A stretch of DNA of 64,000 nucleotides from a virus, in IMG/VR virus record IMGVR_UViG_3300005471_000011, positions 1 to 64,000 of that record. One strand, 5' to 3'. A program made the position numbers and the translations under genes. The notes below the pieces were generated by a model. It was given only the letters and a program-made list of their open reading frames with translations, was not told the origin of the DNA and made no database searches. Positions within the stretch are counted from its first letter, which is position 1. Each line of letters opens with the position of its first letter. Positions 28,639-45,535 of the stretch are shown here, in pieces.

Positions 28639-29433
28639 ATGACCGGCCTCATGGGTTGGCAAAGGAACCGCAAGAAGCAGCGCCATCACCGGCGCGGCGG
28701 CAAGTCGGTTCATTCAGACCAAGAGCCACGATCTTATTCACGCAACGGCCGGGGTGGCGGGCGTCGCAAGTACCAGCATGCCGAGCGCGTGGCAAGGGAA
28801 ATCGACGAGAAAGTTCCCGCCCCAGGTGGTGACCGGGTCATAGTCCCGACGGCCGCCGGGCCAGAAATACCGCCCGTGGTTGCACAGGAGCCGCAAACGG
28901 GCGTTGCAGCCGACAATTCGGCTATCGGGGCAGGGGGCGACCCGCCAATGCCGAACACGGCACTTCTGGAGTCCCAAAGCCAAGTGGTGCCGGACACGCG
29001 ATTGCTTAGGCGTGCCGTGCGGGACAAGCGGTTCAAGACCCCCAAGGAGCTAACGGAGGGCGTGCTTCGCAAGTTGGGGCACCAGGCGTTGGGGCTACCG
29101 TGGCGGAACCCGGTGACCGGCGAGGAGGAAAAAAGCGGCCAGTACACGCCGGCGCAATTGAAGGCGGCGGCAGACACGCTGATCGGCGTGGAGCGGATGA
29201 ACCAACATGACGAGCACCATGACGACCGGCAGGAATACGACGCCAAGCGGCTGGAGTATTACGACCGCGCGCTTGCCTTGCGTGCCAAGATGCCGATCCC
29301 GCTGATGGGTGCTCACATGCACCGGGACGCAGACGGGTCCACGGATGTTTCGGTCATGGTTTACGTTCCGGACAACGGGCGCGACCCGGACGGCATCGAG
29401 CCGGTTGACATGCCACCGGAGCTGCTGGAGTGA
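28639..29433 (+). CDS. putative terminase small subunit
   Basis: Directly upstream of TerL; C-terminal VYVPDNGRD. Confidence 0.55.
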   Translation: MTGLMGWQRNRKKQRHHRRGGKSVHSDQEPRSYSRNGRGGGRRKYQHAERVAREIDEKVPAPGGDRVIVPTAAGPEIPPVVAQEPQTGVAADNSAIGAGGDPPMPNTALLESQSQVVPDTRLLRRAVRDKRFKTPKELTEGVLRKLGHQALGLPWRNPVTGEEEKSGQYTPAQLKAAADTLIGVERMNQHDEHHDDRQEYDAKRLEYYDRALALRAKMPIPLMGAHMHRDADGSTDVSVMVYVPDNGRDPDGIEPVDMPPELLE

Positions 29434-31049
29434 ACGAGCCAGCCAAAATAATCGGACCCCAGAAGGGACCGCAGACGGTTTTCTTATCGAGCAACGCCGA
29501 TATTGCTGTGTACGGCGGTGCTGCTGGCGGCGGAAAGACTTTTGCTCTGCTGATGCAGCCGTTGCGGCACATCAAGAATCCCGGCTTCGGAGCCGTGATC
29601 TTTCGGCGCACGAACCCGCAGATCGTCGCCGAGGGAGGAATGTGGGACCAGTCCCACCAGCTCTACAGCTACATCAAGGACGCCAAGCCTTACTACGGGC
29701 AGTCCCGGCAGTGGGTGTTCCGCAGCGGAGCGAAGATCACCTTCGCGCACATGGAGCACGAGAAGAACAAGCAAGACTGGGACAGCTCACAGATTCCGCT
29801 GATCGAGTTCGACGAGCTGACCAGCTTCTCGGAGAGCATGTTCGTTTACATGCTGACACGCAATCGCTCGACGTGCGGCATCAAGCCATACATGCGGGCG
29901 GCGTGCAATCCGGACGCGGAATCGTGGGTCGCCAAATGGGTGGAATGGTGGATCGACCAGGACACCGGTTATCCGATCCTGGAGAGGTCGGGGATCATCC
30001 GGTGGTTCGTGCGCGACGGCGACACGATGCTTTGGTTCGCCGACAAGGCACAGGCGGTTCATTGGCTGCTGGCAAACCGAGAGTTCAAAGGCGCCAAGAC
30101 GCCGCAGGAGCAAGCGGAGGCAATTCCAAAGTCGTTCACGTTCGTTCCCGCCAACCTAGACGACAACAAGATCCTGGACACGATCAATCCAGAGTATCGC
30201 GCCAACCTTTTGGCGATGACCCAGGTGGAAAGGGAGCGGTTGCTCAAGGGCAACTGGAAAATCCGCCCATCCGCTGGCCTGAAGTTCCCGCGCGACAAGT
30301 GGGTGACGACGATCCAAGGCAACCCAATCATCGCGGTGCCGCCGGGGCTTCGCTTCTTGCGGTTCTGGGATAAGGCATACACCGAGGGTGGTTCCGGGGC
30401 GCGAACGGCAGGGGTGCTGATGGGAGAATTGTCCATCCACCAAGCGCGCGCCCAAGGCTTGCCGCAGTTCTGGATCGTTCACGGAGAGGCGGGAAGGTGG
30501 GGCGACGCGGAGCGCGAATCCAACATGCGCATGCGGGCGGACATGGACCAGAAGATGTACGGCAACGTCATCATCGGGATCGAGCAGGAAGGCGGCGCCG
30601 GCAAGCAGGCAGCCAGAGCATCGGTCGTCAACCTTGCCGGCCATTCGGTCTATTCAGAACATCCGACGTCAAAAAAGCATCTCCGCTGGACGCCGCTCGC
30701 CAGCCAGCAGCAGATCGGAAACGTGGCAATCGTCACCGACGGGTGGGACTGGGCGCAATTCGTCCGGGAGCTGGATGCGCTCGCTGGCGACGAGGACCTC
30801 GACAAAAACAAGCTGCGAGACTATGCCGACGCCGCCGCCGGCGCTTTCAAGGGATTGACCAATACAACAGGAATGGTGCTTGGCGAATTGATGTGCAGCG
30901 GCGACCCGGAAGAAGAAGCCGAATCCAGGCGGCCATTCACTCCAAAAGAGATCGAGGAGCTACCCGATGACCTGCGAGAGCTGATCGAAGAAACCAACGC
31001 CGTGGTCAAGGAGCGAGGCGAGCACCGCTGGAACCAGGACGACTGGTGA
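29430..31049 (+). CDS. terL: terminase large subunit
   Basis: YGGAAGGGKT, FDELT, CNPD, RFWDKA nuclease start. Confidence 0.92.
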   Translation: MNEPAKIIGPQKGPQTVFLSSNADIAVYGGAAGGGKTFALLMQPLRHIKNPGFGAVIFRRTNPQIVAEGGMWDQSHQLYSYIKDAKPYYGQSRQWVFRSGAKITFAHMEHEKNKQDWDSSQIPLIEFDELTSFSESMFVYMLTRNRSTCGIKPYMRAACNPDAESWVAKWVEWWIDQDTGYPILERSGIIRWFVRDGDTMLWFADKAQAVHWLLANREFKGAKTPQEQAEAIPKSFTFVPANLDDNKILDTINPEYRANLLAMTQVERERLLKGNWKIRPSAGLKFPRDKWVTTIQGNPIIAVPPGLRFLRFWDKAYTEGGSGARTAGVLMGELSIHQARAQGLPQFWIVHGEAGRWGDAERESNMRMRADMDQKMYGNVIIGIEQEGGAGKQAARASVVNLAGHSVYSEHPTSKKHLRWTPLASQQQIGNVAIVTDGWDWAQFVRELDALAGDEDLDKNKLRDYADAAAGAFKGLTNTTGMVLGELMCSGDPEEEAESRRPFTPKEIEELPDDLRELIEETNAVVKERGEHRWNQDDW

Positions 31050-32045: not shown

Positions 32046-34604
32046 ATGGGATTCGCCGAATGCAAACAGCGCCGTGATGGCGAACTGATGGTTGTTGAGC
32101 GCCGCGCCTATTCCAGCGGATCACCCGGCGGGCTGTCTGAAATGATCAGCGGCACTGGGGGCGCGATCAACCTCGCGCAAGGCTACCGCCAGCAGGCGAA
32201 ATCCCGCGAGGCGATGCGCCACTTCAAGGGCTGGGTCTGGTCCGCGACCACCTTGATTGCCAAGCGCTGCGCCGGGCAGCCGTGGATGGCGGGGCACTAT
32301 GAAGAGTCACCACCCGACGCCGGCAAGCGTCCCGGCAGGCTGGGAATCAAGCGGTATATGCGGTATGACAAGGGGCTGATTCCCAGGCTCCAGCGCAAGG
32401 CACCCCAGCACGCGGAAGTCGAGCCGGACCAGAACCATCGCGTGCTGTGGGACTTGGATCGTCCCAATCCACAGCAGGGCAAGTTCGAGCTAGTCTATTT
32501 CTCGGTGCTCAACCTGCTGCTGACCGGGGAGTGGTTCTGGGTTGGCGGCATCAAAGAAGCGGACGACGATACCGACGCGGAAGACGACCGCCAGGTTGGT
32601 GAAATGGAAGTATGGGCGGTCCCATCCGCGTGGATGTCGCGCGATGAGGAGACGGGCGGCTGGAAGATGCAGACGGGCATTGGCGCCGAGGAGATCAAGC
32701 TGCCCAAGGAGAACGTGGCGCGCGGCTACTTCCCGGACCCCAGCGATCCCAAGGGCTGCGGCTCGCCGCTGGCATCTTGCATTCAGGCAGTGCGGATCGA
32801 CGAGTACATCCTTTCCAGCCAGGAACAGAGCTTTGCACGCGGCATCGACCCCAAGATTGCGCTGGTCGTCGGTTCCCAGCCAGGACCGGACGGTGGCAAG
32901 GGCACGCGCCCCAGGCTGGTAGGCGCCCAGCGCCGGCAGATGATCCGCGCCATTCGGCAAGTGTGGTCCCAAACGGTCAATGCGGGCGACCCGGCAATTT
33001 TGGATGGATTGATCGAGGACATCAAGAAGCTCCAGTTCGCGCCCAACGAAATGGATTGGCAAAACTCCGGCAAGATCATCAAGGACCGGATCATGCAGAC
33101 GTTCGGCGTCAATCCGATCACGCTGGGGGAAGTCACGCCTGCCAACAAAGCGCAAGCGGTCGTTGCCGAAACAAACCTTTGCACCAACGCATTGAATCCG
33201 ATCATCGAGAACCTGTCCTGCGCAGCTTCGGAGTTCTTCACGCCGTTCTATGACGATGGCAGCAAGCTGGCAGTCTGGCTGGAGAAAGCCATTCCCAAGG
33301 ACGATGAGCGGGAGGACAGACAATGGTCAGACGCACGCAAGAACGGCGACGTCACTGGAGAAGAAGTCCGCCAGCGTTTGGGATTGGAGGCAAAAGAGGA
33401 AGCGGAACGCAGCGTGCTACTGAGCAATCCCCAGGCGATGACGACGGTCGCCAATATCGCTGCGCAGGTCAGCGGCGGAACGCTGGAGCGGGAGGCGGCG
33501 GTAGCGATCATCGCCGAGTTCTTGCAGATCGCGCCGGAAGTCGCCGAGAAGATGATCCCGGAGCAGGGCGAGCCACCGGCAGCACAACCAGAGGCAAAGC
33601 CGCTTGGCGGCAGTGACGGGAAAAACTCGGCCGCAATGCGTTCGCCTTGGTCGATACGTGCGGTGAGCTTAAAGTCTTTCCGTGGCAAGATTGCCAGGGA
33701 GTTCGTCAAGTCCGCGCACGCGGCACAAGCAGATCGCCTAGAGCGTTCGATGGCGGCACCCATCGCCAAGTGGGTCAGCGACTCGGTCGATCACGCGATG
33801 GCCGGGATATTCGGTGCGCAATGGCTGCCCAGGCCAACCGAGGCCAAGGCGCAGGCAGACGCGCTGCTGGCGGCGCATTTCAGCGTGGACCGATGGACGG
33901 GCGAGCTGGCGAAGCTGCTGGGCAAGCCGTCCTCTCGCGCGTTCGTCGAGGGAGCCATCGCCGAGCACCGCATGGCACAGGCAGCGCTGCGGCGCAGGAA
34001 CCGCGACAAGGCAACCGCTGGCGAGTTCGCGTCCGAAGTCACCGGGGAAGTCTGGTTCGACGTGGATATCCCGGAATGGATCATTTCAGCAGCGCGAGCG
34101 TTCTTGGATGCGGCGTTCAACCAACCCTATTGGCTAGAGGTGGCGCAGACGACGCTCAACGACATGGCGATAGCTCTCGGCAATGCCATTTTTGAGGGCA
34201 AGAGCATCCCGCAAATTCGAGACGCGCTGATCGAGCAGTTCGGCTCGGCATACGGCAAGGCGCGAGCGACTTTGATCGCACGGACGGAAGTCGGCGGAGC
34301 GCTGAATGCGGGTGCCATCGCTTCGATCAAGCACACCTACGAGGGAACGGACCTGAAGCCAACCAAGGTCTGGCAATCGGTGCTCGGGCCAACGACGCGG
34401 GAGGAGCACGCGGACGCGGACGGTCAGGAAGTTCCCGTCGATGACAAATTTACCGTTGGCGGTGAGCTATGCGACCATCCCGGTGATGTTAGCTTGTCAA
34501 TTGGAAATCGCGCGAATTGCCAATGTTTCTGCACAGCAGGGCTGGTAGGCGCAGAACTATCAGACGAGGATGCGCAGCGGATCGAGGAAAGCATCGAAGA
34601 ATGA
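32046..34604 (+). CDS. portal protein fused to a MuF/head-morphogenesis domain
   Basis: HK97-like portal motifs (L.RPNP, LLLTGE, G.SPL, I...FGVNP..LG); C-terminal RA..IARTE...A.N.G, K.WQS....TR.EH...DGQ, NCQC. Confidence 0.85.
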   Translation: MGFAECKQRRDGELMVVERRAYSSGSPGGLSEMISGTGGAINLAQGYRQQAKSREAMRHFKGWVWSATTLIAKRCAGQPWMAGHYEESPPDAGKRPGRLGIKRYMRYDKGLIPRLQRKAPQHAEVEPDQNHRVLWDLDRPNPQQGKFELVYFSVLNLLLTGEWFWVGGIKEADDDTDAEDDRQVGEMEVWAVPSAWMSRDEETGGWKMQTGIGAEEIKLPKENVARGYFPDPSDPKGCGSPLASCIQAVRIDEYILSSQEQSFARGIDPKIALVVGSQPGPDGGKGTRPRLVGAQRRQMIRAIRQVWSQTVNAGDPAILDGLIEDIKKLQFAPNEMDWQNSGKIIKDRIMQTFGVNPITLGEVTPANKAQAVVAETNLCTNALNPIIENLSCAASEFFTPFYDDGSKLAVWLEKAIPKDDEREDRQWSDARKNGDVTGEEVRQRLGLEAKEEAERSVLLSNPQAMTTVANIAAQVSGGTLEREAAVAIIAEFLQIAPEVAEKMIPEQGEPPAAQPEAKPLGGSDGKNSAAMRSPWSIRAVSLKSFRGKIAREFVKSAHAAQADRLERSMAAPIAKWVSDSVDHAMAGIFGAQWLPRPTEAKAQADALLAAHFSVDRWTGELAKLLGKPSSRAFVEGAIAEHRMAQAALRRRNRDKATAGEFASEVTGEVWFDVDIPEWIISAARAFLDAAFNQPYWLEVAQTTLNDMAIALGNAIFEGKSIPQIRDALIEQFGSAYGKARATLIARTEVGGALNAGAIASIKHTYEGTDLKPTKVWQSVLGPTTREEHADADGQEVPVDDKFTVGGELCDHPGDVSLSIGNRANCQCFCTAGLVGAELSDEDAQRIEESIEE

Positions 34605-34933
34605 TAGACGCACTAGTCGGTCATCTCGTCGGCGATTATCTGCTCCAAAATGACTGGATGGCGGCAGGCAAAAAGCGGTCGCACTTTATTTGCGCGGTTC
34701 ACGTCGGCATTTACACGGCGGCTGTTTGCATCATGGCACAGTGGCCGCTCTGGACCATCCCGGCAGTCTTCATCCCGCATTTCCTGATTGACCGCTGGCA
34801 ATTCGTGCCGTGGTACATGAAAACAATCAGGCAGCCGTTTATCGACAACAATCTTTGACCACGGAGCCATCGGCGGCTCCATGAAAACGTGTTTCACATT
34901 CTCTGCCTCTGGATCACTTGGAAGTTCACGTGA
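34601..34933 (+). pseudogene. DUF3307 membrane protein disrupted by a 45-bp inversion
   Basis: GHLVGDYLLQNDWMA..K, HFLID; re-inverting 34841-34885 restores ...APWSKIVVDNVFH... Confidence 0.75.
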
Positions 34934-35613
34934 AGCCCTTCGACATTGCCGCGATCATCAACGACGCCGAGTACATGCGCTACGTGCGCAACGTGCTGCG
35001 TCCGGCACGCATCGGCGGAATGCGGCGGCGAGCCATTCTCGCGGCGCTCTATCGCGCGTGGCAGGCATCCGGCTTGCCGTCAATCACCGGCGTCGAGGTC
35101 GGCGTCAAGCACGGCACCATGTCACACCAGGTTCTGGCGCACCTTCCATGCGTCTCCAAGCTGGTCATGGTGGACCCCTGGGAAGAATACCCACAGGACC
35201 ACAAGGACCGCGCCAAGTACAACTACGCCAGCCGGGACAACTCCGCATGGGAGCAGCTCTATCGCCGGGCTTCTAGTCACGTGGCGCAGTTCGGCGACCG
35301 CGCGGACATCTGGCGCATGACCAGCGTGGACGCGGCACGCAGATGCTTCGAGTCACAGGACCAGCATTTCTTCGTGTACCTAGATGCGCGGCACCAGTAC
35401 GACGACGTTCTGGAGGATTGTGAAGTCTGGTGGGATAACGTGCTTCCGGGCGGCTTGCTCTGCGGGGATGACTTTTACCCGGCAGGACATGATCGCCGCC
35501 CAAGCGCCATGCAAGTGAGCACGGCTATCGAGGAGTTTGCGCGGCGCAAGGGCCTGCCGGTGGTGCCTCTGCACCGCAACTTCTTCATTGCTAAACCGCT
35601 AGTTGACGGTTGA
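34930..35613 (+). CDS. class I SAM-dependent methyltransferase (Methyltransf_24-like)
   Basis: GVEVGV..G, VDPW, FVYLDARH.Y..V..D...WW..V.PGG.L.GDD. Confidence 0.85.
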   Translation: MKPFDIAAIINDAEYMRYVRNVLRPARIGGMRRRAILAALYRAWQASGLPSITGVEVGVKHGTMSHQVLAHLPCVSKLVMVDPWEEYPQDHKDRAKYNYASRDNSAWEQLYRRASSHVAQFGDRADIWRMTSVDAARRCFESQDQHFFVYLDARHQYDDVLEDCEVWWDNVLPGGLLCGDDFYPAGHDRRPSAMQVSTAIEEFARRKGLPVVPLHRNFFIAKPLVDG

Positions 35614-37992: not shown

Positions 37993-38685
37993 ATGGCAAT
38001 TGACATCACCGCTGTATCTAGGCTAAAGCATGCCGACTTGCACAATGCGGCAAAAAAGCTCGGCGGACAATCGGCGCTGGCTAAATTCCTCGGAGTTCAC
38101 GTTTGCGAGATTGGACAATGGTGCAATCTCAGAAAAACACCGCCAAAATCCTGGCCGCCTGAAAGGCTAAATGAAATCGAGCGTAAGCTGTTCGAATTGA
38201 CGAACAAAACTTTAGATCAGCTTTTCCCAAAAGAGCTTCAGGATGCGGAGGAATTCCTGAAGGCACGCAAGGTTATTGAGACGACGAGAACAGTTGAAGT
38301 GGCGGCTTTAATCCGATACGCCGAGAGAACCGCCGAGCGGCTTTCATTTAGCAACGATTCGCAAGCAGAAAAGCTTCACGATCTTGAAGTGCTGAAGGAA
38401 CGGATTCGGAAGTCCATGAAAACGCTTTCGGACCGTGAAAATAAAATACTTGAACTGCGATTTGGACTTAACGGCTGCGAGACGCATACGCTTGCAGAAG
38501 TGGGTAGCGTTCTAGGAATAACCGGAGCACGTGTTAGGCAAATAGAATCGAAGGCTATTCGCAAATTGCAACAGCCCAGCCGATCATTTGAATTAGTTGC
38601 GTTTGCCCCAGAACGAATTGGAGCTTTGCCGCCTTACCAGCAGCCAAGGGAAGTGTGGCCAAGTGAGTTAATAGCTGACGGATAG
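37993..38685 (+). CDS. HTH plus sigma70 region 4 domain transcription regulator
   Basis: GQSALAKFLGV; LSDRE.KILELRFGL....TLAEVG..LGITG.RVRQIE.KAIRKL. Confidence 0.85.
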   Translation: MAIDITAVSRLKHADLHNAAKKLGGQSALAKFLGVHVCEIGQWCNLRKTPPKSWPPERLNEIERKLFELTNKTLDQLFPKELQDAEEFLKARKVIETTRTVEVAALIRYAERTAERLSFSNDSQAEKLHDLEVLKERIRKSMKTLSDRENKILELRFGLNGCETHTLAEVGSVLGITGARVRQIESKAIRKLQQPSRSFELVAFAPERIGALPPYQQPREVWPSELIADG

Positions 38686-39111: not shown

Positions 39112-40119
39112 GTGGCAAAACAAATCACGTTCGCCCTGGGAACAGCGGGAAACCTGTCAGCGCGGACGTTGACGATCCGCGCCATGGTCAATGGGGACTA
39201 CACCGACCACCTGACCACCCAAGCGCTGGCGGGCACGGTCGAGGAAGCCACGGCGGTGATCCCGGACGACTTGAACTGTGAAGCGGTGCTGATCGACCGC
39301 CGCAGCGAGTTCACGATGGCACCGGTGGTGCTGCATTTCGTGACGTCTTCGCAGATTTACCGGGATGTTCAAAGCTCCGCCGCGCCGCGATCCATCAGCG
39401 CGGGCATGCTGCGGATCGTGGACGTGGAGGAGTTGAGCGAATCGTCGGCCAGCTCGCTATCGACAAGCACGCTGAGTTCGGTCAGCAGCAGCAGCACGAG
39501 CACTTTGAGCAGCAGCTCGACAAGTTCTGTCTCCAGTAGTTCGTCCAGCCTCAGTTCCGTTAGCTCTTCCAGCAGCACTCGCAGCTCACTCAGTTCCGTT
39601 AGTTCGTCTAGCTCTAGCCATTCGACGAGCAGCGTCTCAAGCCCCAGCTCGGCCAGCAGCAGCTCGACCTCTTCGGTGTCGAGCAGCAGCAGCAGCCGGT
39701 CCACGGCATCCAGCGTGTCCAGCAGTTCCACGAGCACGCTTACGAGTTCCAGCGTCAGCTCGTCCAGTACATCGACTGTGTCAAGCTCCAGCTCAAGCAC
39801 GACGCAGACGATCAGCAGCAAATCCACGCTGTCCAGCTCGACTCGCAGCAGCAGCTCGTCCGTTACCGCGTCGAGCTTGTCGAGTTCGAGCACTTCATCC
39901 GTGTCAAGCAGCAGCTCCTCGCGCAGCCGCTCCAGCGTCAGCACGGCATCGTCATCCTCAACAAGCAGCCCTTCCACCCTATCCTCGTCGTCGAGTTCTA
40001 CGTTCAGCACTGCCTCGTCCAGTTCGAGCAGCGCCTCGTCCAGTTCGAGCAGCGTTTCTTCGTCAAGTTCAAGTACATCGTCGCTCAGCTCATCTTCGAG
40101 CAGCGTCGGCGACCTGTAG
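39112..40119 (+). CDS. protein with a ~220-aa poly-Ser/Thr tail
   Basis: Globular N-domain followed by a Ser/Thr tract. Confidence 0.75.
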   Translation: MAKQITFALGTAGNLSARTLTIRAMVNGDYTDHLTTQALAGTVEEATAVIPDDLNCEAVLIDRRSEFTMAPVVLHFVTSSQIYRDVQSSAAPRSISAGMLRIVDVEELSESSASSLSTSTLSSVSSSSTSTLSSSSTSSVSSSSSSLSSVSSSSSTRSSLSSVSSSSSSHSTSSVSSPSSASSSSTSSVSSSSSSRSTASSVSSSSTSTLTSSSVSSSSTSTVSSSSSSTTQTISSKSTLSSSTRSSSSSVTASSLSSSSTSSVSSSSSSRSRSSVSTASSSSTSSPSTLSSSSSSTFSTASSSSSSASSSSSSVSSSSSSTSSLSSSSSSVGDL

Positions 40120-40134
40120 CAAAGGAACCTAAGT

Positions 40135-40788
40135 ATGCCGATCCGCATCAACCTTCCCGCCGCAGCCCGCATGATCCAGCAGAAGTCCCCTGCGGAGTTG
40201 ACCGGCGTTTACGTCGCCGTCGCAACCAAGTGCAAGGAGCTGAAGCTCACTCCGGGCCGTCGCGACACGGTGGCACCGCAGCCGTCCACCGGGGAAGGCA
40301 ACATCAACTTCCGAACTCTGATCCAGTTCGCTGAATCAGTGGAGCCTCATCCGGAGAATGAGCCGGAGGCGCCGAAGATTCTGGAGCAGGACAAGCTGCG
40401 TGACGGCGACAGCCAAGAGGTAATCGACGCGAAGGCATCGACCCAGCAGCGCAAGACGCAGGATCAGAGACGATTCGAAGCGGCGAAGGCAGAACGCAAC
40501 GAGAACCACCGGGCGTTGCGGGTTCTGCTGGGAGCTTTGACGGCGCGGTTCACTACGGCCGGCATTCCGCTGCCGGAGATCCCCAAGACAGCAGCGGAAA
40601 TTGCTGCGGCCGATAAAGTCGCGGCCGACAAGAAAGCCGCTGATGACAAGGCAGCGGCCGATAAAGTCGCCGCGGAGAATGCTTCATCCCAGGTGCCGGC
40701 GCAGCAAATGAAAGCGCCGGCAGCGCCGCCCAAGGTTGGAGCACCGCCACAACCACCGGCAGGGCGCAGGGGTCCTCCTGTTGGCTAA
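40135..40788 (+). CDS. hypothetical protein with AADK repeats
   Basis: AAAGGA RBS. Confidence 0.65.
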   Translation: MPIRINLPAAARMIQQKSPAELTGVYVAVATKCKELKLTPGRRDTVAPQPSTGEGNINFRTLIQFAESVEPHPENEPEAPKILEQDKLRDGDSQEVIDAKASTQQRKTQDQRRFEAAKAERNENHRALRVLLGALTARFTTAGIPLPEIPKTAAEIAAADKVAADKKAADDKAAADKVAAENASSQVPAQQMKAPAAPPKVGAPPQPPAGRRGPPVG

Positions 40789-40855: not shown

Positions 40856-43834
40856 ATGCCGATTCCAAAACCCAACGACGGCGAATCCGAGTCCGACTTC
40901 CACGCACGCTGCATGGAAGCTATCGGCGGAGAATACGAGCCGGACCAAGCCAACGCGATCTGCTTTTCGCAGTATCGCGGCGACAAGCGGTCCGTGATGC
41001 TCTCGATGGTCAAGGGTCGCACGTCGGGCGAGTTCGGCTACGGCATCACCACGGCGGATCGGTATGTGGAGCAGGTGATCAAATCCTGCGGCGTGGAAGC
41101 CTCGCTGTTCAACGGCCCGGCGGCGCAGGTCGCGGCGGCGATGAAGCACGCGGCTGGCATGCTGGCGTTCTGCGGCAAGGACCAGCGCCAGGACAAGATC
41201 GAAACCGGCATGGCGGCGATGCGCAAGTTGATCGGCATGGAGCCGCCGGTGCACTCCATGATGGCAATCGTCCACCGGCTAACGACGCCGCGAGAGGACC
41301 GGGACGGCGACACGCTCCAGACCAAGGGCGCACGTCCCGACCCCAAGATGCCGTTCCTGTGGCAGCATGTGTCCACGATCCCCATCGGCAAGCTGGCGCG
41401 GGTGCTAGAGCACACGGAAGAAGTGCTGAAGATGGCGACCGTGCTCCTGGACTTGAACTCGCTGACATCAGATGTCGGCAAGCTGTTTGAGGCAGAGGCG
41501 CTGCGGTTCAGTCACGGGTTCATCCCGACCAACTTTGAGGAGCGCAAGGGCGGTCCGATGGCACGGTTCAACGTGCTGGAGTTCGATGTGGTCGAGGAGT
41601 CCGCCGTCAGCGTGCCTTCCAATGTGGACGCGGAAGTGGAGCTGTTCAGCCGAGGCAAGCTCTCCAGCGATCTGGTCAAGTCCCACGCGAAGTCGCTGTT
41701 CGACGCGCGTATCAAATCCATGCCAGTAACCGACAAGGCCAAGGCGATTTTCGAGAAGGAATCCAGCGGCAAGGGATTCCCTCGCTGTGAGGTCTGCGGG
41801 CAGATCGCCAAGCTGGAGGGCACCAAGCGATGCAAGGCGTGCCGCAGCGGCAAAAAGGAAACCAGCAACCTCGTCCGCAAGATGTTCGACATCGCGACCC
41901 AGCGAGTCGAACCGACGACGATGGAATGCGACTGGGCGGCGCGGTACATCGGCTGCTCGGTCAAGGACCTGCACATCCATTCCACGTCGGCGCGCGGGAT
42001 TATGGTGGGCGGATTTCTCAAGGGGCTGGAACTGGCATGCCAGGAATTTCAGTGCAGCGACACCCGCAACATCAAAGGCGAATCGGAGTCGCCGCCGGTC
42101 TTTGAAACCAAAGAGATCGACAGCAGCACGCGGCAGAACTTCCTGGTGGAAGGCATCCGATTCTGGCACGGCGAAGGCTATAAGATCGTCACGCGCGTGG
42201 AGCCGTACTGGGATTCCCAGCAGCTCGTCGTTTACGCCGAAGAGGGCGAGCAGGCGCAGAAAATCATCGACGATGCCTGGGAATGGCTGGCCAAGAACAA
42301 CCCGCTCAAGGGGCAGGCGTTCGCGCTGACGGGAAGTTGGATCAGCAAGAGCGGCATTGGCTGGGACGACGTGTTCCTGGAAAAGAAGATCGAGGATTCC
42401 CTCAAACGCACGGTGCGGGTCATCAATGAAAAAGGCATTGACGCTGCCAACCGCGGCCTCATTCTTAGTGGCCCACCGGGTACGGGAAAAACTTTGTCCG
42501 CGCGGGTCATGCTCAACGAGACGAAGAACACCACGTTCATCTGGGTTAGCCCCAAGGACTTTTATCGCGGCGGCGGCTTCATGGAGGCGTTCTCGCTGGC
42601 GCGCCAGCTTGCCCCGACGGTGCTGATGTTCGAGGACATCGACAACTGGATTGACCGGTACTCGGTGGACCTGATCAAAGCGGAGATGGACGGGCTGCAA
42701 GAGTCCACGGGCGTTGTAACGATCCTGACGACCAACTTCCCGGACCAGTTGCCGGCGGCGCTGATCGACCGACCCGGTCGTTTCCATGACGTGCTGGAAA
42801 TCCACTTGCCGTCCAAGGACGTGCGGTTGCGGATGCTCCAGAAGTGGGCTGCGGATGCCACTCTGGACGCTTTGGCGGCGATGGCAGAGGAGACGGAGGG
42901 CTACAGCGGGGCGCACGTGTATGAGTTGTGCAGCTTCGCCAAGGTGCTCAAGGACGAAGACGGCAGCACGCTCGATGAAGCACTGACCAAGGCGTTTGCC
43001 AAGGTTAAGGATCAGCGCGAACTGATCAATCAGAACCAACTTGCCGGCAGCAGCTACCGTCCAAGCCGCCGGGATATCACTGACTTGGTCGCTAAAGGCT
43101 GGACGCGAGAAGAACGAATCACCGAAGGCGGAATTCAATACCGCCTCACAAAAGGAGTGGCGGCAATGGACACCAAGATCGGCGATGTGCTGCCCATGAT
43201 CGGCCCCATCCCACATGAAGGGGAAGCAGCGGCTGATTTCCAGTCGCGCTGCATCCTCGATCCAACAATGCTTGGCAACTACCCGACGGTGTCGGACCGG
43301 GAGAGCGCCTGCCGAATTTTGTTCTCTCGCGGCGACGGCATCTTCGCGGCAGCCAAGCCAACGACCAAGGAAGTCGGCACGTGCAAGGAATGCAGCAAGG
43401 AGATGGAACTCAATCCCCAAGGCTTGTGCGCCGAGTGCGCCAGGAAACGCGACGCCGCCGGCTACGACGAGAGCGGCCAACCGAAGTCGGCACCGGTTCA
43501 GATCAAGGCAGGGCGCGTGCTGTCCAAGCGAAACATCGAGCGGCTCAGCGAAGCGCTCAAGCGGCACCAGGAAGGCATCGAGCGGATCAAGGGCGTGCTG
43601 GACGACGCCAACCCGACCGAAGAAGTCGCACCAACGGAGCCAGGTGCCAATGCACCGCTCGCCGGACCAGATCACGTGATGACCCAGGCGGTGCTGCTGG
43701 TCGCCGAGGACCGCGCCGCGCGGGACAAACTGCGCAAGGCCATCGATGCGTTCGATTTGGCGGACGAAGAGGAGCAGAAATCATCGGATTACGAATCACT
43801 GTTCGAAGAGGCGTTAGTTGCGGAAACGGCTTGA
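40856..43834 (+). CDS. HK97-type prohead protease fused to an AAA+ ATPase
   Basis: DRDGD, PFLWQH..PIGK, FSHGF, EESAVSVPSN; GPPGTGKT, MFEDID, TTNFP, DRPGRF, GYSGAH. Confidence 0.85.
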   Translation: MPIPKPNDGESESDFHARCMEAIGGEYEPDQANAICFSQYRGDKRSVMLSMVKGRTSGEFGYGITTADRYVEQVIKSCGVEASLFNGPAAQVAAAMKHAAGMLAFCGKDQRQDKIETGMAAMRKLIGMEPPVHSMMAIVHRLTTPREDRDGDTLQTKGARPDPKMPFLWQHVSTIPIGKLARVLEHTEEVLKMATVLLDLNSLTSDVGKLFEAEALRFSHGFIPTNFEERKGGPMARFNVLEFDVVEESAVSVPSNVDAEVELFSRGKLSSDLVKSHAKSLFDARIKSMPVTDKAKAIFEKESSGKGFPRCEVCGQIAKLEGTKRCKACRSGKKETSNLVRKMFDIATQRVEPTTMECDWAARYIGCSVKDLHIHSTSARGIMVGGFLKGLELACQEFQCSDTRNIKGESESPPVFETKEIDSSTRQNFLVEGIRFWHGEGYKIVTRVEPYWDSQQLVVYAEEGEQAQKIIDDAWEWLAKNNPLKGQAFALTGSWISKSGIGWDDVFLEKKIEDSLKRTVRVINEKGIDAANRGLILSGPPGTGKTLSARVMLNETKNTTFIWVSPKDFYRGGGFMEAFSLARQLAPTVLMFEDIDNWIDRYSVDLIKAEMDGLQESTGVVTILTTNFPDQLPAALIDRPGRFHDVLEIHLPSKDVRLRMLQKWAADATLDALAAMAEETEGYSGAHVYELCSFAKVLKDEDGSTLDEALTKAFAKVKDQRELINQNQLAGSSYRPSRRDITDLVAKGWTREERITEGGIQYRLTKGVAAMDTKIGDVLPMIGPIPHEGEAAADFQSRCILDPTMLGNYPTVSDRESACRILFSRGDGIFAAAKPTTKEVGTCKECSKEMELNPQGLCAECARKRDAAGYDESGQPKSAPVQIKAGRVLSKRNIERLSEALKRHQEGIERIKGVLDDANPTEEVAPTEPGANAPLAGPDHVMTQAVLLVAEDRAARDKLRKAIDAFDLADEEEQKSSDYESLFEEALVAETA

Positions 43835-43900: not shown

Positions 43901-45535
43901 ATGATCATGAAAGTCACGAGCCAATTGAAGGCGTGGCTCCAGAGCGAAAAAGGCGTCAAGCCGGACGCGACGGAGCAGGACTACCGACAGGCCGCCGCCA
44001 AGGCGCTGACGGATGACACCAACCCGCTGTCTGCGGAGAAGTTTGCGGAGCTGACGGCAGGGGAGGCAGTAAAGCCCGCCAACGCCATGCTGGCGATGAT
44101 GGAGAAGATGAACGCCCGGCTGGACGAGCAAGATGCTCGTTTCAAGAGCATAGAGACAGGTGGTCACCGCGCGGAAGCACCGATCGTTCCAGCCGGCTTG
44201 AAAGCGGCGATCATGGGCGGTGCCAGCGAGATCCCCGACGCCAGCGGTCAGCCGCGCATCAAGCGAGCGGCGGAGCGCTACAACAAGGCGCGCGGCGAGC
44301 TGCGATTCCCGGAGCCGGAGATCAAGAACGAGCGGTATGCCCTGCATCCCCGCAAGGGCCAGCTCGCCAGCTACGGCTCCGCCGGTCGCCATTGCGGCGA
44401 GTTTCAGGTCGGGCAACTTTCCGAGCTGGAGAAGGCTTGCTGCGGCTCATTCATCAAGTTCAGCATCCACAAGGCAGCCAACGGCTTTGGTCCGCCGGTG
44501 CCGCACAACCTGCGCATGAACGATCAAGACTGGGACTTGGTCCAGTACATGATCGAGGAGTGCGAGTGGGGCGGTGTGCTCCACGGGGAAGGCAGCGACT
44601 TCGAAGGCGCGGTCGGCTTGAACGGCAAGCAGCGCCTGATCAAGGGCGCGCAGTTCAACATGCAGAAGGCGCTGCTGGACGATAACACGTCCGGCGGTCT
44701 GGAAGCGGCGCCGATCTTCTTCGACGAGATGCTGATCACCACGCCGCTGCTTCACGGGGAATTGTTCCCGTCGGTGGAAGTTATCAACGTCACGCGCGGG
44801 CGGCGCATCGAGGGCGTCACGATGTCCAACGTGACCCTCGGCGCGGCGACGGAAGGTTCCACGATCACTCTGTTCAACACCGCAGCTTTCATTGCGGCGT
44901 TCGACACGACGATCTTCGTGTGCATGGGTGCCATCGAAATCGGTCTGGACTTCCTGTCCGACTCTCCGATTGACATTGCCGGCGCGGTGGCCAAGAGCTA
45001 CCAGGAGCGGCTGCTGTCCTGGCTGGACGAGCAGATCGCCATCGGCGACGGCACCACGGAGCCGGAAGGTTTGCTTAACAGCGGTGCCACGTCCGTCGGT
45101 TCCACCAACACGTCGGCAGGTCCTTGGACGATTGGCGATGAGTTGGCGCTGATGTTCGCCGTGGCCAAGCAGTATCAAACTGGCTTTGACCGCTCGCGTA
45201 TCCGCTACAGCGGCAACGAAGTGACGTACCGCCGGCTGCGGTCGATCCAGGTGACGACCTCGGATCAGCGACTCGTCCAGGGCATGGACGTGCGGTCGTA
45301 CATGATCCTGGACCAGCCTTACGCCGTGAACGGCAACTGGACCAACCGCCAGCTTGCCTACGCGAATCTGGCTCGTTACCGGATGTATCGCCGCCTTGGC
45401 ATGACCGTCCGCTGGGAAACCGCCGGCGCCACACTGGGTCGCAGCAACACCGGTTTGCTGATTGCCCGCTCGCGTTGGGGTGGGCAGTTGACGGACGCGC
45501 TGGCCGCTTCTCTTTGCACCGACGGCATGTCGTAA
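43901..45535 (+). CDS. major capsid protein (HK97 fold)
   Basis: Follows the protease; SGG...P, DFLSDS.IDI, D.QI..GDG..EPEGLL. Confidence 0.85.
   Translation: MIMKVTSQLKAWLQSEKGVKPDATEQDYRQAAAKALTDDTNPLSAEKFAELTAGEAVKPANAMLAMMEKMNARLDEQDARFKSIETGGHRAEAPIVPAGLKAAIMGGASEIPDASGQPRIKRAAERYNKARGELRFPEPEIKNERYALHPRKGQLASYGSAGRHCGEFQVGQLSELEKACCGSFIKFSIHKAANGFGPPVPHNLRMNDQDWDLVQYMIEECEWGGVLHGEGSDFEGAVGLNGKQRLIKGAQFNMQKALLDDNTSGGLEAAPIFFDEMLITTPLLHGELFPSVEVINVTRGRRIEGVTMSNVTLGAATEGSTITLFNTAAFIAAFDTTIFVCMGAIEIGLDFLSDSPIDIAGAVAKSYQERLLSWLDEQIAIGDGTTEPEGLLNSGATSVGSTNTSAGPWTIGDELALMFAVAKQYQTGFDRSRIRYSGNEVTYRRLRSIQVTTSDQRLVQGMDVRSYMILDQPYAVNGNWTNRQLAYANLARYRMYRRLGMTVRWETAGATLGRSNTGLLIARSRWGGQLTDALAASLCTDGMS

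What the first reader, a model, noticed from the sequence alone, without database searches (positions are those of the whole stretch)
40856..43834. Prohead protease fused to a complete AAA+ ATPase with Zn ribbons and a repeated small domain
Seen: a 992-aa ORF in the protease position containing an HK97-type protease (PFLWQH, EESAVSVPSN), a CxxC..CxxC motif, a full AAA module (GPPGTGKT ~42470, FEDID, DRPGRF) and a second Zn ribbon. A P.P..GE...DF..RC module occurs at the N-terminus and again after the ATPase. Known: HK97 proteases are ATP-independent. Inference: either ATP-assisted capsid maturation, or an ATPase cargo packaged into the head through the protease.
Basis: partly seen in the sequence, partly recalled or inferred. 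Interest (0 to 1): 0.72.

Follow-up and report, generated by a model that had tools for sequence, protein, structure and literature searches.

The report
Capsid protease carrying Bcs1-like ring ATPase
An uncultured soil phage makes its capsid-trimming protease as one 992-residue protein that also holds a complete ATP-driven ring chaperone of the rare Bcs1/YjoB type, a fusion shared by hundreds of metagenomic phage lineages but no cultured phage, which hints at an energy-using accessory step in head assembly.

Summary
ORF 40856-43834 (+) is one uninterrupted 992-codon gene in the head module of a 104-kb IMG/VR phage record, directly upstream of an HK97-fold capsid gene. It holds an S78 (HK97 gp4-type) protease with the catalytic His and Ser, a complete classical AAA+ module, a repeated mini-domain, and one conserved and one lineage-specific Cys4 knuckle.

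New here: the ATPase and the 190-residue domain before it form one unit of the Bcs1/YjoB type. YjoB and Bcs1 are the top fold matches, and the rare 'ED' Walker B is kept in 207 of 207 family members. The unit sits as a cassette between the protease and a conserved C-terminal tail.

The mid domain marks 243-387 clusters (50% identity) among 1.84 billion proteins. Nearly all are protease fusions next to the capsid gene, and some are permuted or fused to it. Close siblings (67-81% identical) lack the cassette, and the protease tree needs at least 5 gains or losses, so it is an accessory.

Best reading (inferred): a tethered ring chaperone acting on folded head proteins during procapsid assembly or clearing. 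Packaged cargo remains a live rival.

I found no paper describing the fusion. This scan found the same fusion at least eight times before on other DNA.

The parts
40856..40990 (+). N-terminal mini-domain, copy 1 (aa 1-45; P.P..GE...F..RC, a helical hairpin with C19 and C36)
   Evidence: Modelled as two helices at pLDDT 79-92. Homologous to copy 2 (E 4e-6). No Pfam or PHROG family. Atlas leads point to N-termini of phage S78, XkdF and DUF2213 head proteins and to 63-72 aa phage proteins (lead only). Present in only some homologues.
40991..41257 (+). Conserved N-terminal extension of the protease (aa 46-134; FGYGITTAD.YV ... K.A...L)
   Evidence: Conserved across 23 homologues and modelled as alpha/beta at pLDDT 67-93. 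No family match.
41258..41710 (+). S78 / HK97 gp4-type prohead serine protease domain (aa 135-285; His171 in LWQH, Ser219 in FSHGF, EES.VSVPSN)
   Evidence: Pfam PF04586 scores 16.6-20.3 bits against a cut-off of 21, and relatives score above it. phrog_617 matches at E 1e-9 and phrog_80 'head maturation protease' at E 7e-7. S219 falls in the invariant column of HK97 gp4 S114. In that alignment LWQH lies one column off gp4's FFNH. H171 and S219 are invariant in 23 homologues.
41711..41872 (+). Variable, disordered linker (aa 286-339) with a lineage-specific CxxC-x11-CxxC knuckle (C311-C329, nt 41786-41842)
   Evidence: pLDDT 45-53. The four Cys are kept in 1-4 of 23 homologues. Homologues have 45-250 aa here, some with a DUF3721 insert.
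41873..42430 (+). N-domain of the ATPase unit ('mid' domain, aa 340-525), the family's signature domain
   Evidence: pLDDT 92-98. It always precedes the AAA domain. No Pfam or PHROG hit. With the AAA domain it aligns to YjoB chain residues 9-404. Alone it matches Bcs1 only weakly, at Foldseek E 2e-3 to 9e-3 and prob 0.90-0.97. Its profile finds 243-387 clusters in 1.84 billion proteins.
42431..43048 (+). Classical-clade AAA+ ATPase domain (aa 526-731): Walker A GPPGTGKT 539-546, Walker B 'ED' E593-D594, sensor-1 N627, SRH arginines R639 and R642, lid YSGAH 683-687
   Evidence: PF00004 at E 4.8e-17. PDB profile matches to the Cdc48/p97 AAA domains reach domain E 1e-24 to 1e-26. VIA Z is about 20-21 to proteasomal, FtsH and p97 AAA domains. 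K545, E593, D594, N627, R639 and R642 are conserved in 207 of 207 family members.
43049..43204 (+). Post-ATPase segment (aa 732-783): conserved QL.GS.YRP motif (728-736), a small beta-hairpin (749-766), then a disordered linker
   Evidence: Q728 and Y734 are kept in at least 90% of 23 homologues, yet the segment has pLDDT below 50 at 732-739 and 767-780. Its role is unknown.
43205..43345 (+). Mini-domain, copy 2 (aa 784-830; PIPHEGEAAADFQSRC..., C799 and C819)
   Evidence: Internal repeat of aa 1-45. Helical at pLDDT 78-92 over aa 781-820, falling to 64 over aa 821-830. Also present in the ATPase-less siblings P0024 and P0030.
43382..43438 (+). Conserved Cys4 zinc-ribbon-like knuckle (C843, C846, C858, C861)
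   Evidence: The Cys are kept in 15-19 of 23 homologues. pLDDT is about 85. Weak Pfam DZR_2 hit at E 0.02. Metal binding is inferred from the pattern only.
43493..43834 (+). C-terminal tail (aa 880-992; KAGRVLS..N motif at 884-890, then long acidic helices) and the stop codon
   Evidence: K884 is kept in at least 90% of homologues. Tail-HMM hits occur in many fusion proteins and in ATPase-less Pirellulales prophage proteases. Helices 891-991. A capsid-targeting or scaffold-like role is inferred by analogy with the HK97 gp4 tail (my own knowledge) and was not tested.
43901..45535 (+). Major capsid protein gene (544 aa) with about 290 aa of N-terminal extension, 66 nt downstream
   Evidence: Pfam Phage_capsid PF05065 at aa 292-535, E 6.1e-15. 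In 59 of 69 related loci with enough sequence, an MCP-like ORF starts within 1 kb downstream of the fusion gene. In 2 more it lies in the same ORF.

Best explanation
SHOWN: This is one real gene for an HK97 gp4-type (S78) prohead serine protease. A complete ring-ATPase unit of the Bcs1/YjoB type has been inserted into it as a cassette. The unit is a 190-residue N-domain plus a classical AAA+ domain with the rare 'ED' Walker B. It sits between the catalytic domain and a conserved C-terminal tail. The fusion gene lies directly upstream of the capsid gene in most of the related loci that could be checked. All ATP-site residues are kept. The cassette has been gained or lost several times, so it is an accessory and not a core part of maturation.

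INFERRED mechanism:
1. The C-terminal tail brings the protein to the inner face of the assembling procapsid, as the tail of HK97 gp4 does.
2. The ATPase unit assembles into a 6- or 7-membered ring. Its N-domains close a chamber, as in YjoB and Bcs1.
3. The ring carries 6-7 flexibly tethered protease domains and 6-7 tails.
4. It binds folded head proteins and uses ATP to hold, remodel or release them. The most likely clients are the long N-terminal scaffold-like domain of the capsid protein, or the protease itself.
5. This makes assembly or proteolytic clearing of a large (about 100-145 kb genome) head more efficient.
6. The linkers on both sides are disordered and variable. They are plausible sites where the protease frees the unit.
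For: Gene and context:
- The ORF is intact, and independent contigs are identical.
- TerL and portal lie upstream, and the PF05065 capsid gene lies 66 nt downstream.

Protease:
- Ser219 falls in the column of HK97 gp4 Ser114, and LWQH lies one column off gp4's FFNH.
- His171 and Ser219 are invariant.
- There are S78 and PHROG protease hits.

Bcs1/YjoB type:
- Foldseek's top PDB hits for the whole model are YjoB (E 3e-17, about 420 columns), then Bcs1 heptamers.
- VIA gives Z 21.5 with 345 residues aligned, model 334-719 against YjoB 9-404.
- YjoB and Bcs1 are the classical AAA proteins that 'exceptionally' carry ED instead of DE in Walker B, and both are active (PMC9565160). This family has E-D in 207 of 207 members.
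- The Walker A Lys, sensor-1 Asn and both SRH Arg are also invariant.
- Two members carry an intein within the ATPase unit.

Link to head assembly:
- 154 IMG/VR relatives were found.
- The mid+AAA unit lies inside ORFs of 444 to 2035 aa that usually begin with an S78 domain.
- An MCP gene follows within 1 kb in 59 of 69 loci, or lies in the same ORF as AAA-protease-MCP.
- The protease tree and the ATPase tree are mostly congruent.

Accessory status:
- P0024 against P0010 is 74% and 81% identical, and P0030 against P0003 is 77% and 67% identical. Both pairs differ by a clean absence of about 420-440 aa.
- The tree needs at least 5 gains or losses.

A chaperone or translocase role for stand-alone phage BCS1 orthologues in head assembly was already proposed (PMC7824862).
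Against: - No experiment or expression data exist. No cultured phage carries the fusion.
- Localisation inside the procapsid rests on analogy and on the permuted AAA-protease-MCP fusions. The complex prediction meant to test tail-MCP binding could not be run.
- The N-domain alone gives only weak Bcs1 matches and no clear hit in an exhaustive structural search, where the best Z was 7.5 to unrelated folds. Pfam BCS1_N does not match.
- By sequence, the nearest solved AAA domains are those of Cdc48/p97, not Bcs1.
- A folded 45-kDa ring subunit inside a closed shell would have to be digested or stay in the virion.
- Repeated loss shows that heads mature without it.
Confidence: 0.42

Rival explanations
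1. Packaged cargo. The protease and tail serve as the loading vehicle. The Bcs1-like ATPase is cut out at the two disordered linkers, stays in the mature head and is ejected into the host. There it acts as a chaperone or remodeller, for example in takeover or counter-defence.
For: - The cassette is dispensable and lies between flexible, variable linkers.
- Fusions of the unit to the interior-facing N-terminus of the capsid protein exist.
- Processed internal or ejected proteins loaded through targeting sequences are known in T4, and SPN3US is described this way in an abstract listed. The T4 case is my own knowledge.
- Earlier scan notes reached the same 'optional passenger' idea.
Against: - The passenger is always this one ATPase family and mostly co-evolves with the protease. 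Cargo would be expected to vary.
- A ring ATPase would have to unfold to pass through the tail and then refold.
- No virion proteome exists.
- Stand-alone phage relatives are not obviously virion genes.
Confidence: 0.25
2. Assembly hub. ATP-dependent ring formation serves mainly to oligomerise the protein. This raises the avidity of 6-7 tails for the capsid interior and brings protease domains together for activation, or it templates capsomers. Hydrolysis acts as a release switch and not as work on a client.
For: - In YjoB the N-domains form a very stable interlocked hexamer (PMC9565160).
- Domain order can be permuted and the linkers are long. This suits tethering better than a fixed protease chamber.
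- The residue after pore-loop F569 is variable.
Against: - The hydrolysis residues are invariant in 207 of 207 members (ED, sensor-1, Arg fingers). That is more than oligomerisation alone needs.
- ATPase-less siblings assemble without such a hub.
Confidence: 0.15
3. A Lon/FtsH-like processive ATP-dependent protease. The AAA ring unfolds substrates and threads them into the attached S78 protease sites.
For: - An AAA domain and a protease sit in one chain, as in Lon and FtsH.
- A minority of members have the Lon/FtsH order, AAA then protease.
- A hydrophobic pore-loop residue, F569, is kept in 84% of members.
Against: - In this protein and most relatives the protease is N-terminal and joined by a 45-250 aa disordered linker.
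- The ATPase is of the Bcs1/YjoB kind, which handles folded proteins in a chamber.
- The second pore-loop residue is not conserved.
- S78 proteases work without ATP in HK97 (my own knowledge) and in the ATPase-less siblings, by inference.
Confidence: 0.08
4. Artefact. Two genes are joined by a sequencing error, a chimeric assembly or a missed stop.
For: The Logan unitigs of the source run break at 42579-42608, inside the ATPase.
Against: - The two unitigs overlap by 30 nt and are identical to the window. The break coincides with short contigs of other sequences that share this stretch.
- Dozens of independent contigs encode the same collinear protein.
- The family shows strong purifying selection across the whole length.
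Confidence: 0.01

Closest known systems
HK97 gp4-type prohead maturation protease (MEROPS S78, Pfam PF04586)
   Same: The catalytic Ser aligns with gp4 Ser114 and the His motif is equivalent. The gene lies directly upstream of an HK97-fold capsid gene. A C-terminal tail follows the catalytic domain.
   Different: gp4 is 225 aa and needs no ATP. This protein is 992 aa. It has a 400-aa ATPase unit, two mini-domains and Cys4 knuckles between the catalytic domain and the tail. P0001 itself scores just under the Pfam cut-off.
Bacillus subtilis YjoB and mitochondrial Bcs1 (classical-clade AAA+ with a specific N-domain and an internal chamber)
   Same: The N-domain plus single AAA layout is shared. 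They are the best fold matches over both domains. The ED Walker B, sensor-1 Asn and SRH arginines are shared.
   Different: There is no transmembrane anchor (unlike Bcs1), and the unit is not a free-standing protein. The N-domain has no sequence match to BCS1_N and only a weak structural match alone. The oligomeric state and the client are unknown.
Stand-alone BCS1-like AAA+ ATPases of jumbo phages, N4-like phages and giant viruses
   Same: They share the unit type. BFVD's best matches are 380-500 aa viral AAA proteins, several of them named BCS1. Stand-alone proteins of about 450 aa cover 79-85% of the unit at 29-32% identity. Iyer et al. proposed that phage BCS1 orthologues move folded proteins during head assembly (PMC7824862).
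   Different: They are separate genes. In Erwinia phage Frozen and Stenotrophomonas phage ANB28 they are not next to a protease or capsid gene. The fusion to the prohead protease is not mentioned in that paper.
Lon and FtsH AAA+ proteases
   Same: An AAA+ ring and a protease sit in one polypeptide.
   Different: The protease family differs (S78, against S16 or M41). The domain order is reversed in most members. The join is a long flexible linker, not a fixed chamber. The ATPase subtype differs.
Protease-scaffold and protease-capsid fusion genes of tailed phages (lambda C/Nu3 type, Stx-phage phrog_617 type)
   Same: Head-assembly functions are concatenated in one reading frame next to the capsid gene. 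phrog_617 matches the protease part. Some relatives add the capsid protein to the same ORF.
   Different: None of those known fusions includes an ATPase. The details of lambda C/Nu3 come from my own knowledge.

Membership tests
HK97 gp4-type prohead protease (S78, PF04586) | Match to the family profile above the curated cut-off | tested here: inconclusive
   P0001 scores 16.6 bits as a whole and 20.3 bits for the isolated domain, against a cut-off of 21. Family members pass: L072 31.6, L080 33.7, L023 24.6 and L027 24.8 bits. Several homologues carry a precomputed PF04586 hit. PHROG protease families match at E 1e-9 and 7e-7.
HK97 gp4-type prohead protease (S78, PF04586) | Catalytic His and Ser in the conserved motifs | tested here: met
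   S219 (FSHGF) falls in the invariant column of HK97 gp4 S114. H171 (LWQH) matches the gp4 FFNH motif, which MAFFT offsets by one column. Both are invariant in 23 homologues and kept in at least 90% of 57. That H65 and S114 are the catalytic residues of gp4 is my own knowledge.
HK97 gp4-type prohead protease (S78, PF04586) | Gene placed in the head module directly before the major capsid gene | tested here: met
   TerL and portal lie upstream, and the PF05065 capsid gene lies 66 nt downstream. The same order holds in 59 of 69 related loci and in HK97 itself.
HK97 gp4-type prohead protease (S78, PF04586) | Assemblin-like protease fold | tested here: inconclusive
   The domain is modelled with high confidence, but the ATPase filled every fold-search list and no separate model of the domain was made. 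No solved relative was found by sequence.
HK97 gp4-type prohead protease (S78, PF04586) | C-terminal tail that targets the protease to the procapsid interior | not testable with these tools
   A conserved tail exists.
Bcs1/YjoB-type classical AAA+ ATPases | Classical-clade AAA domain (PF00004, sensor-1 Asn, second region of homology with two Arg) | tested here: met
   PF00004 scores 63.1 bits against a cut-off of 21.2. N627, R639 and R642 are kept in 207 of 207 members. VIA Z is about 20-21 to proteasomal, FtsH and p97 AAA domains.
Bcs1/YjoB-type classical AAA+ ATPases | Walker B reads ED instead of DE | tested here: met
   E593-D594 is kept in 207 of 207 family members. The ED signature of YjoB and Bcs1 is stated in PMC9565160.
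Bcs1/YjoB-type classical AAA+ ATPases | A specific alpha/beta N-domain directly before the AAA domain, homologous to the Bcs1 or YjoB N-domain | tested here: inconclusive
   For: YjoB and Bcs1 are the top matches over both domains. The YjoB alignment covers 345 residues, including the N-domain. Bcs1 chains recur at E 2e-3 to 9e-3 and prob 0.90-0.97 for the domain alone. Atlas leads point to BCS1_N clusters at 0.82-0.83. Against: no Pfam BCS1_N hit, and the exhaustive VIA search of the domain alone gave no clear match, best Z 7.5 to unrelated folds.
Bcs1/YjoB-type classical AAA+ ATPases | Hexameric or heptameric ring with an internal chamber; ATPase activity | not testable with these tools
Activity is inferred only from conservation of the site.
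Bcs1 proper (mitochondrial translocase) | N-terminal transmembrane anchor | tested here: not met
   The segment before the N-domain (aa 286-339) is hydrophilic and disordered. In this respect the unit resembles soluble YjoB.
Lon/FtsH-type AAA+ proteases | AAA ring followed by an S16 or M41 protease domain that forms a fixed degradation chamber | tested here: not met
   The protease is S78-type and lies N-terminal to the ATPase, joined by a disordered linker of variable length. The order is permuted in a minority of members.

The most novel reading that the evidence does not exclude
Head assembly in a large, uncultured group of tailed phages includes an ATP-driven step carried out inside or at the procapsid. 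A Bcs1-like ring delivered by the maturation protease would hold or move folded proteins, such as scaffold domains, the protease or internal proteins, much as Bcs1 moves a folded subunit. It would be the first ATP-using machine in capsid maturation other than the terminase.
Probability: 0.3. Interest if true: 0.85.

Novelty: new variant of a known kind. Interest (0 to 1): 0.64.

Why it matters
Capsid maturation proteases of tailed phages and herpesviruses are textbook ATP-independent enzymes. The only ATP-driven machine known in head morphogenesis is the packaging terminase.

Here a specific ring ATPase with a fully conserved ATP site is tied to the protease and capsid genes. It is of a kind known to handle folded proteins in a chamber. 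The link holds in 243-387 protein clusters and 154 IMG/VR contigs.

If the unit works in the procapsid, it adds an energy-dependent chaperone or translocation step to a well-studied assembly pathway. If it is cargo, it is a new way of loading an enzyme into a virion.

Natural sibling pairs with and without the cassette make the question directly testable with cloned head modules.

Tried and rejected
I could not read the contigs of the ATPase-less siblings P0024 and P0030 or of the possibly stand-alone form P0145. P0145 also has no IMG/VR relative.
- No RNA holder was listed for the stretch, and only contigs, not raw reads, could be laid.

**Searches that found nothing useful**
- Exhaustive structural search of the mid domain alone gave no clear fold match. 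The best Z was 7.5 to unrelated small alpha/beta proteins, and YjoB and Bcs1 were not in the top 50.
- Foldseek on the same model gave nothing at E <= 1e-3.
- Pfam and PHROGs gave nothing for the mini-domains, the N-terminal extension or the mid domain, and only chance-level hits (E 0.04-0.14) for the tail.
- A PDB sequence search with the protease half found nothing.
- Literature searches for a protease-AAA fusion found no description.

**Readings considered and dropped**
- Stand-alone or protease-less forms. P0098 looked like one, but it is a truncated gene call of a 1023-aa protease fusion. Most short hits come from 1-4 kb contigs.
- An internal translation start at M786 before mini-domain copy 2. 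That Met is not conserved.
- A shared KAGRVLS-type signal on other proteins of the window. The motif occurs only once.

**Left unresolved**
- Frequent cassette exchange between proteases. The two trees are mostly congruent, with only 4 strongly supported conflicts. FastTree was used for this check, so it is a coarse test.


Full report
**Observation**

The window is bases 1-64000 of a linear IMG/VR virus record of 104,107 bases, estimated 83% complete. The larger ORFs in this region all lie on the + strand.

ORF 40856-43834 is read without a stop into 992 residues. Upstream lie a large terminase (29430-31049, phrog_979 at E 8e-128) and a portal fused to a head-morphogenesis domain (32046-34604). 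Sixty-six bases downstream lies a 544-residue protein whose residues 292-535 match Pfam Phage_capsid at E 6e-15. The ORF is therefore in the protease position of an HK97-like head module.

Logan contigs of the probable source run (a rhizosphere metagenome) match the stretch with no substitution or indel. So do short contigs of a run from a second study.

**Domain anatomy**

An AlphaFold model built on 57 homologues has mean pLDDT 82.5. With the alignment of 23 close homologues it gives this order:

| Residues | Part | Notes |
|---|---|---|
| 1-45 | Helical mini-domain, copy 1 | Present in only some homologues |
| 46-134 | Conserved extension | No family match |
| 135-285 | S78 protease | See below |
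| 286-339 | Disordered linker | Holds a CxxC-x11-CxxC knuckle; its Cys are kept in only 1-4 of 23 homologues |
| 340-525 | 'Mid' domain | Very confidently modelled alpha/beta domain |
| 526-731 | AAA+ domain | See below |
| 728-736 | QL.GS.YRP motif | Conserved, but in a low-confidence segment |
| 749-766 | Beta-hairpin | |
| 784-830 | Mini-domain, copy 2 | BLASTP E 4e-6 against copy 1 |
| 843-861 | Cys4 knuckle | Cys kept in 15-19 of 23 homologues |
| 880-992 | Helical, acidic tail | Opens with a near-invariant KAGRVLS motif |

**The protease**

Pfam Peptidase_S78 scores just under its cut-off for this protein (16.6-20.3 bits against 21). It scores above the cut-off for more distant members of the same family. 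PHROG families annotated as head maturation protease, or as protease-capsid fusion, match at E 7e-7 and 1e-9.

In an alignment with HK97 gp4, Ser219 falls in the invariant column of gp4 Ser114. The LWQH histidine corresponds to the gp4 FFNH histidine, which MAFFT offsets by one column. Both residues are invariant in the 23 close homologues. I did not obtain a separate fold match for this domain.

**The ATPase unit**

PF00004 matches at E 5e-17. A family profile matches each of the two AAA domains of Cdc48/p97 at domain E 1e-24 to 1e-26.

When the whole model is searched against the PDB, the top matches are not generic AAA domains. They are B. subtilis YjoB (E 3e-17 over about 420 columns) followed by Bcs1 heptamers. 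A second aligner gives YjoB Z 21.5 with 345 residues aligned, model 334-719 against chain 9-404. That alignment covers the mid domain as well as the AAA domain.

The YjoB paper states that YjoB and Bcs1 are exceptional among classical AAA proteins in carrying ED instead of DE in Walker B, and that both are nevertheless active. It also states that both form rings (hexamer, heptamer) whose N-domains close an internal chamber used for folded clients (PMC9565160).

Of the 70 other AAA proteins retrieved alongside, 48-49 read DE. Pore-loop residue F569 is kept in 84%, but the next residue is variable. Two members carry an intein within the ATPase unit.

The mid domain alone gives only weak support for homology with the Bcs1 N-domain:
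- Bcs1 chains recur at E 2e-3 to 9e-3 with prob 0.90-0.97.
- Protein-atlas leads point to BCS1_N clusters and to the N-terminal parts of 440-570 aa phage and bacterial AAA proteins.
- An exhaustive structural search gave no clear match, and Pfam BCS1_N does not hit.

I therefore call the unit 'Bcs1/YjoB-type' on three grounds: the ED signature, the domain layout, and the joint fold match. Homology of the N-domain stays inconclusive.

**Distribution and context**

*Absence from cultured phages*
- No record among 50,697 phage records covers more than about a fifth of the protein.
- BFVD holds only stand-alone viral BCS1-like proteins of 380-500 aa.

*Spread in metagenomes*
- About 55 clusters share the mid+AAA unit at E below 1e-70.
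- IMG/VR holds 154 relatives.
- A profile of the mid domain finds 387 clusters at E <= 1e-3, and 243 at E <= 1e-30, among 1.84 billion representatives.

*Architecture*
- In the fetched loci the unit lies inside ORFs of 444 to 2035 residues.
- An S78 domain was detected in 102 of the best 150 representatives by a narrow family HMM.
- Pfam detected it in further members that the HMM missed.
- One apparent protease-less form proved to be a truncated gene call.
- A few members have the permuted order mid-AAA-protease-capsid protein in a single ORF.
- In 59 of 69 loci with enough downstream sequence, a capsid-protein ORF starts within 1 kb on the same strand.

*Possible hosts and relatives*
- MAG contigs with relatives are labelled Pirellulales, Melioribacteraceae and Cloacimonadota.
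- Stand-alone proteins of about 450 aa cover 79-85% of the unit at 29-32% identity.
- In Erwinia phage Frozen and Stenotrophomonas phage ANB28, the matching stand-alone ATPase genes are not next to protease or capsid genes.

**The cassette is dispensable**

P0024 (576 aa) is 74% identical to P0010 (946 aa) over the protease half and 81% over the tail half. It lacks residues 300-719 of P0010, with a short unrelated helical linker in their place. P0030 against P0003 shows the same pattern, at 77% and 67% identity.

In a maximum-likelihood tree of 66 protease domains, the 12 ATPase-less forms fall in at least five places. Well-supported branches force at least 5 changes. Two of the ATPase-less forms sit inside the window's own well-supported clade, as sisters of ATPase-bearing proteins. 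ATPase-less forms are under-sampled, because the search query carried the ATPase.

Trees of the protease and of the mid+AAA unit share most strong splits, with only four strongly supported conflicts. This was a coarse FastTree test. The simplest history is an old fusion inherited with the protease and lost repeatedly.

**How it most likely works**

*Shown:* the fusion, its intact catalytic sites, its constant place beside the capsid gene, its Bcs1/YjoB-type signature, and its dispensability.

*Inferred:* the tail brings the protein into the procapsid, as the tail of HK97 gp4 does (my own knowledge). The interior-facing AAA-protease-capsid fusions support an internal location. The unit forms a 6- or 7-membered ring with a chamber. 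The ring carries tethered proteases and tails. It uses ATP to hold, remodel or release folded head proteins, most plausibly the unusually long (about 290 aa) N-terminal domain of the capsid protein. I put this reading at about 0.4.

*Rivals:*
- Cargo (about 0.25). It fits the dispensability and the flexible linkers. It fits less well with the constancy of the passenger and its co-evolution with the protease.
- A pure oligomerisation hub (about 0.15). It does not explain why the hydrolysis residues are invariant.
- A Lon/FtsH-like threading protease (about 0.08). It fits poorly with the domain order, the linkers and the ATPase subtype.
- An artefact. It is excluded.

**Comparison with what is known, and novelty**

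Both parts belong to known families. Iyer and colleagues noted stand-alone BCS1 orthologues in jumbo phages and proposed that they move folded proteins during head assembly (PMC7824862). That paper does not mention a protease fusion. Three full-text searches found no description of one.

I class it as a new variant of a known kind: a prohead protease with an inserted Bcs1/YjoB-type ATPase.

This scan has met the same fusion at least eight times in other genomes, with the same reading. I reached the Bcs1/YjoB reading, before consulting those notes. I tested the 'optional cassette' claim independently.

Noticed in passing
window 43901-45535: The major capsid protein has about 290 residues before its HK97-fold part. 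These include a conserved helical domain of about 55 aa at the very N-terminus, a variable linker, and a conserved region at about aa 120-290. No separate scaffold gene is evident between protease and capsid gene, so this may be a very long delta or scaffold domain.
   Followed up: partly
L096-L113 (e.g. L096 10993-12321 and 12322-13380): One sub-lineage of fusion-bearing phages has two tandem capsid-protein paralogues, about 440 aa and about 350 aa, downstream of the protease-ATPase gene.
   Followed up: no
L025 2699-6001, L053 1010-4306, L057 9920-13198, L060 4226-7357: Four loci carry single ORFs of 1043-1100 aa with the permuted order mid-AAA-protease. In L025 and L060 my MCP profile also finds the capsid protein in the same ORF. 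Similar proteins P0045 and P0049 carry precomputed PF05065. Whether every capsid subunit is made this way, or a shorter product also exists, is unknown.
   Followed up: partly
P0015 (1229 aa) and P0072 (1399 aa): An intein (PF14890) lies within the ATPase unit of two family members.
   Followed up: no
window 43037-43063 (aa 728-736): A QL.GS.YRP motif is conserved even in distant members, yet it lies just after the AAA lid in a segment of low model confidence. It could be a cleavage site or an inter-subunit contact. It is unexplained.
   Followed up: no
window 34918-35613 and 37993-38685: The head module is interrupted between portal and protease by non-structural genes. One is a DNA methyltransferase-like gene and one is a sigma-factor-like gene. 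Two ORFs with no PHROG family (39112-40119, 40135-40788) follow them; the second has only chance-level Pfam hits (E 0.016-0.84) and the first was not scanned against Pfam.
   Followed up: no
window 32046-34604: The portal ORF (852 aa) carries a C-terminal domain that matches 'head morphogenesis' and minor-head-protein families (phrog_2468 at E 6e-33). This is a portal fused to a head-morphogenesis protein.
   Followed up: no
L006, L008, L009 (Pirellulales MAG contigs): ATPase-less long proteases (697-1088 aa) of Pirellulales MAG contigs, possibly prophages, match the C-terminal tail HMM; in L006 and L008 it matches twice, in L009 once.
   Followed up: no
L066 2-1165 and 1188-2522: In one IMG/VR contig the fusion gene is split within the mid domain into two adjacent ORFs, by a frameshift or a sequencing error. 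P0211 corresponds to the second piece.
   Followed up: no
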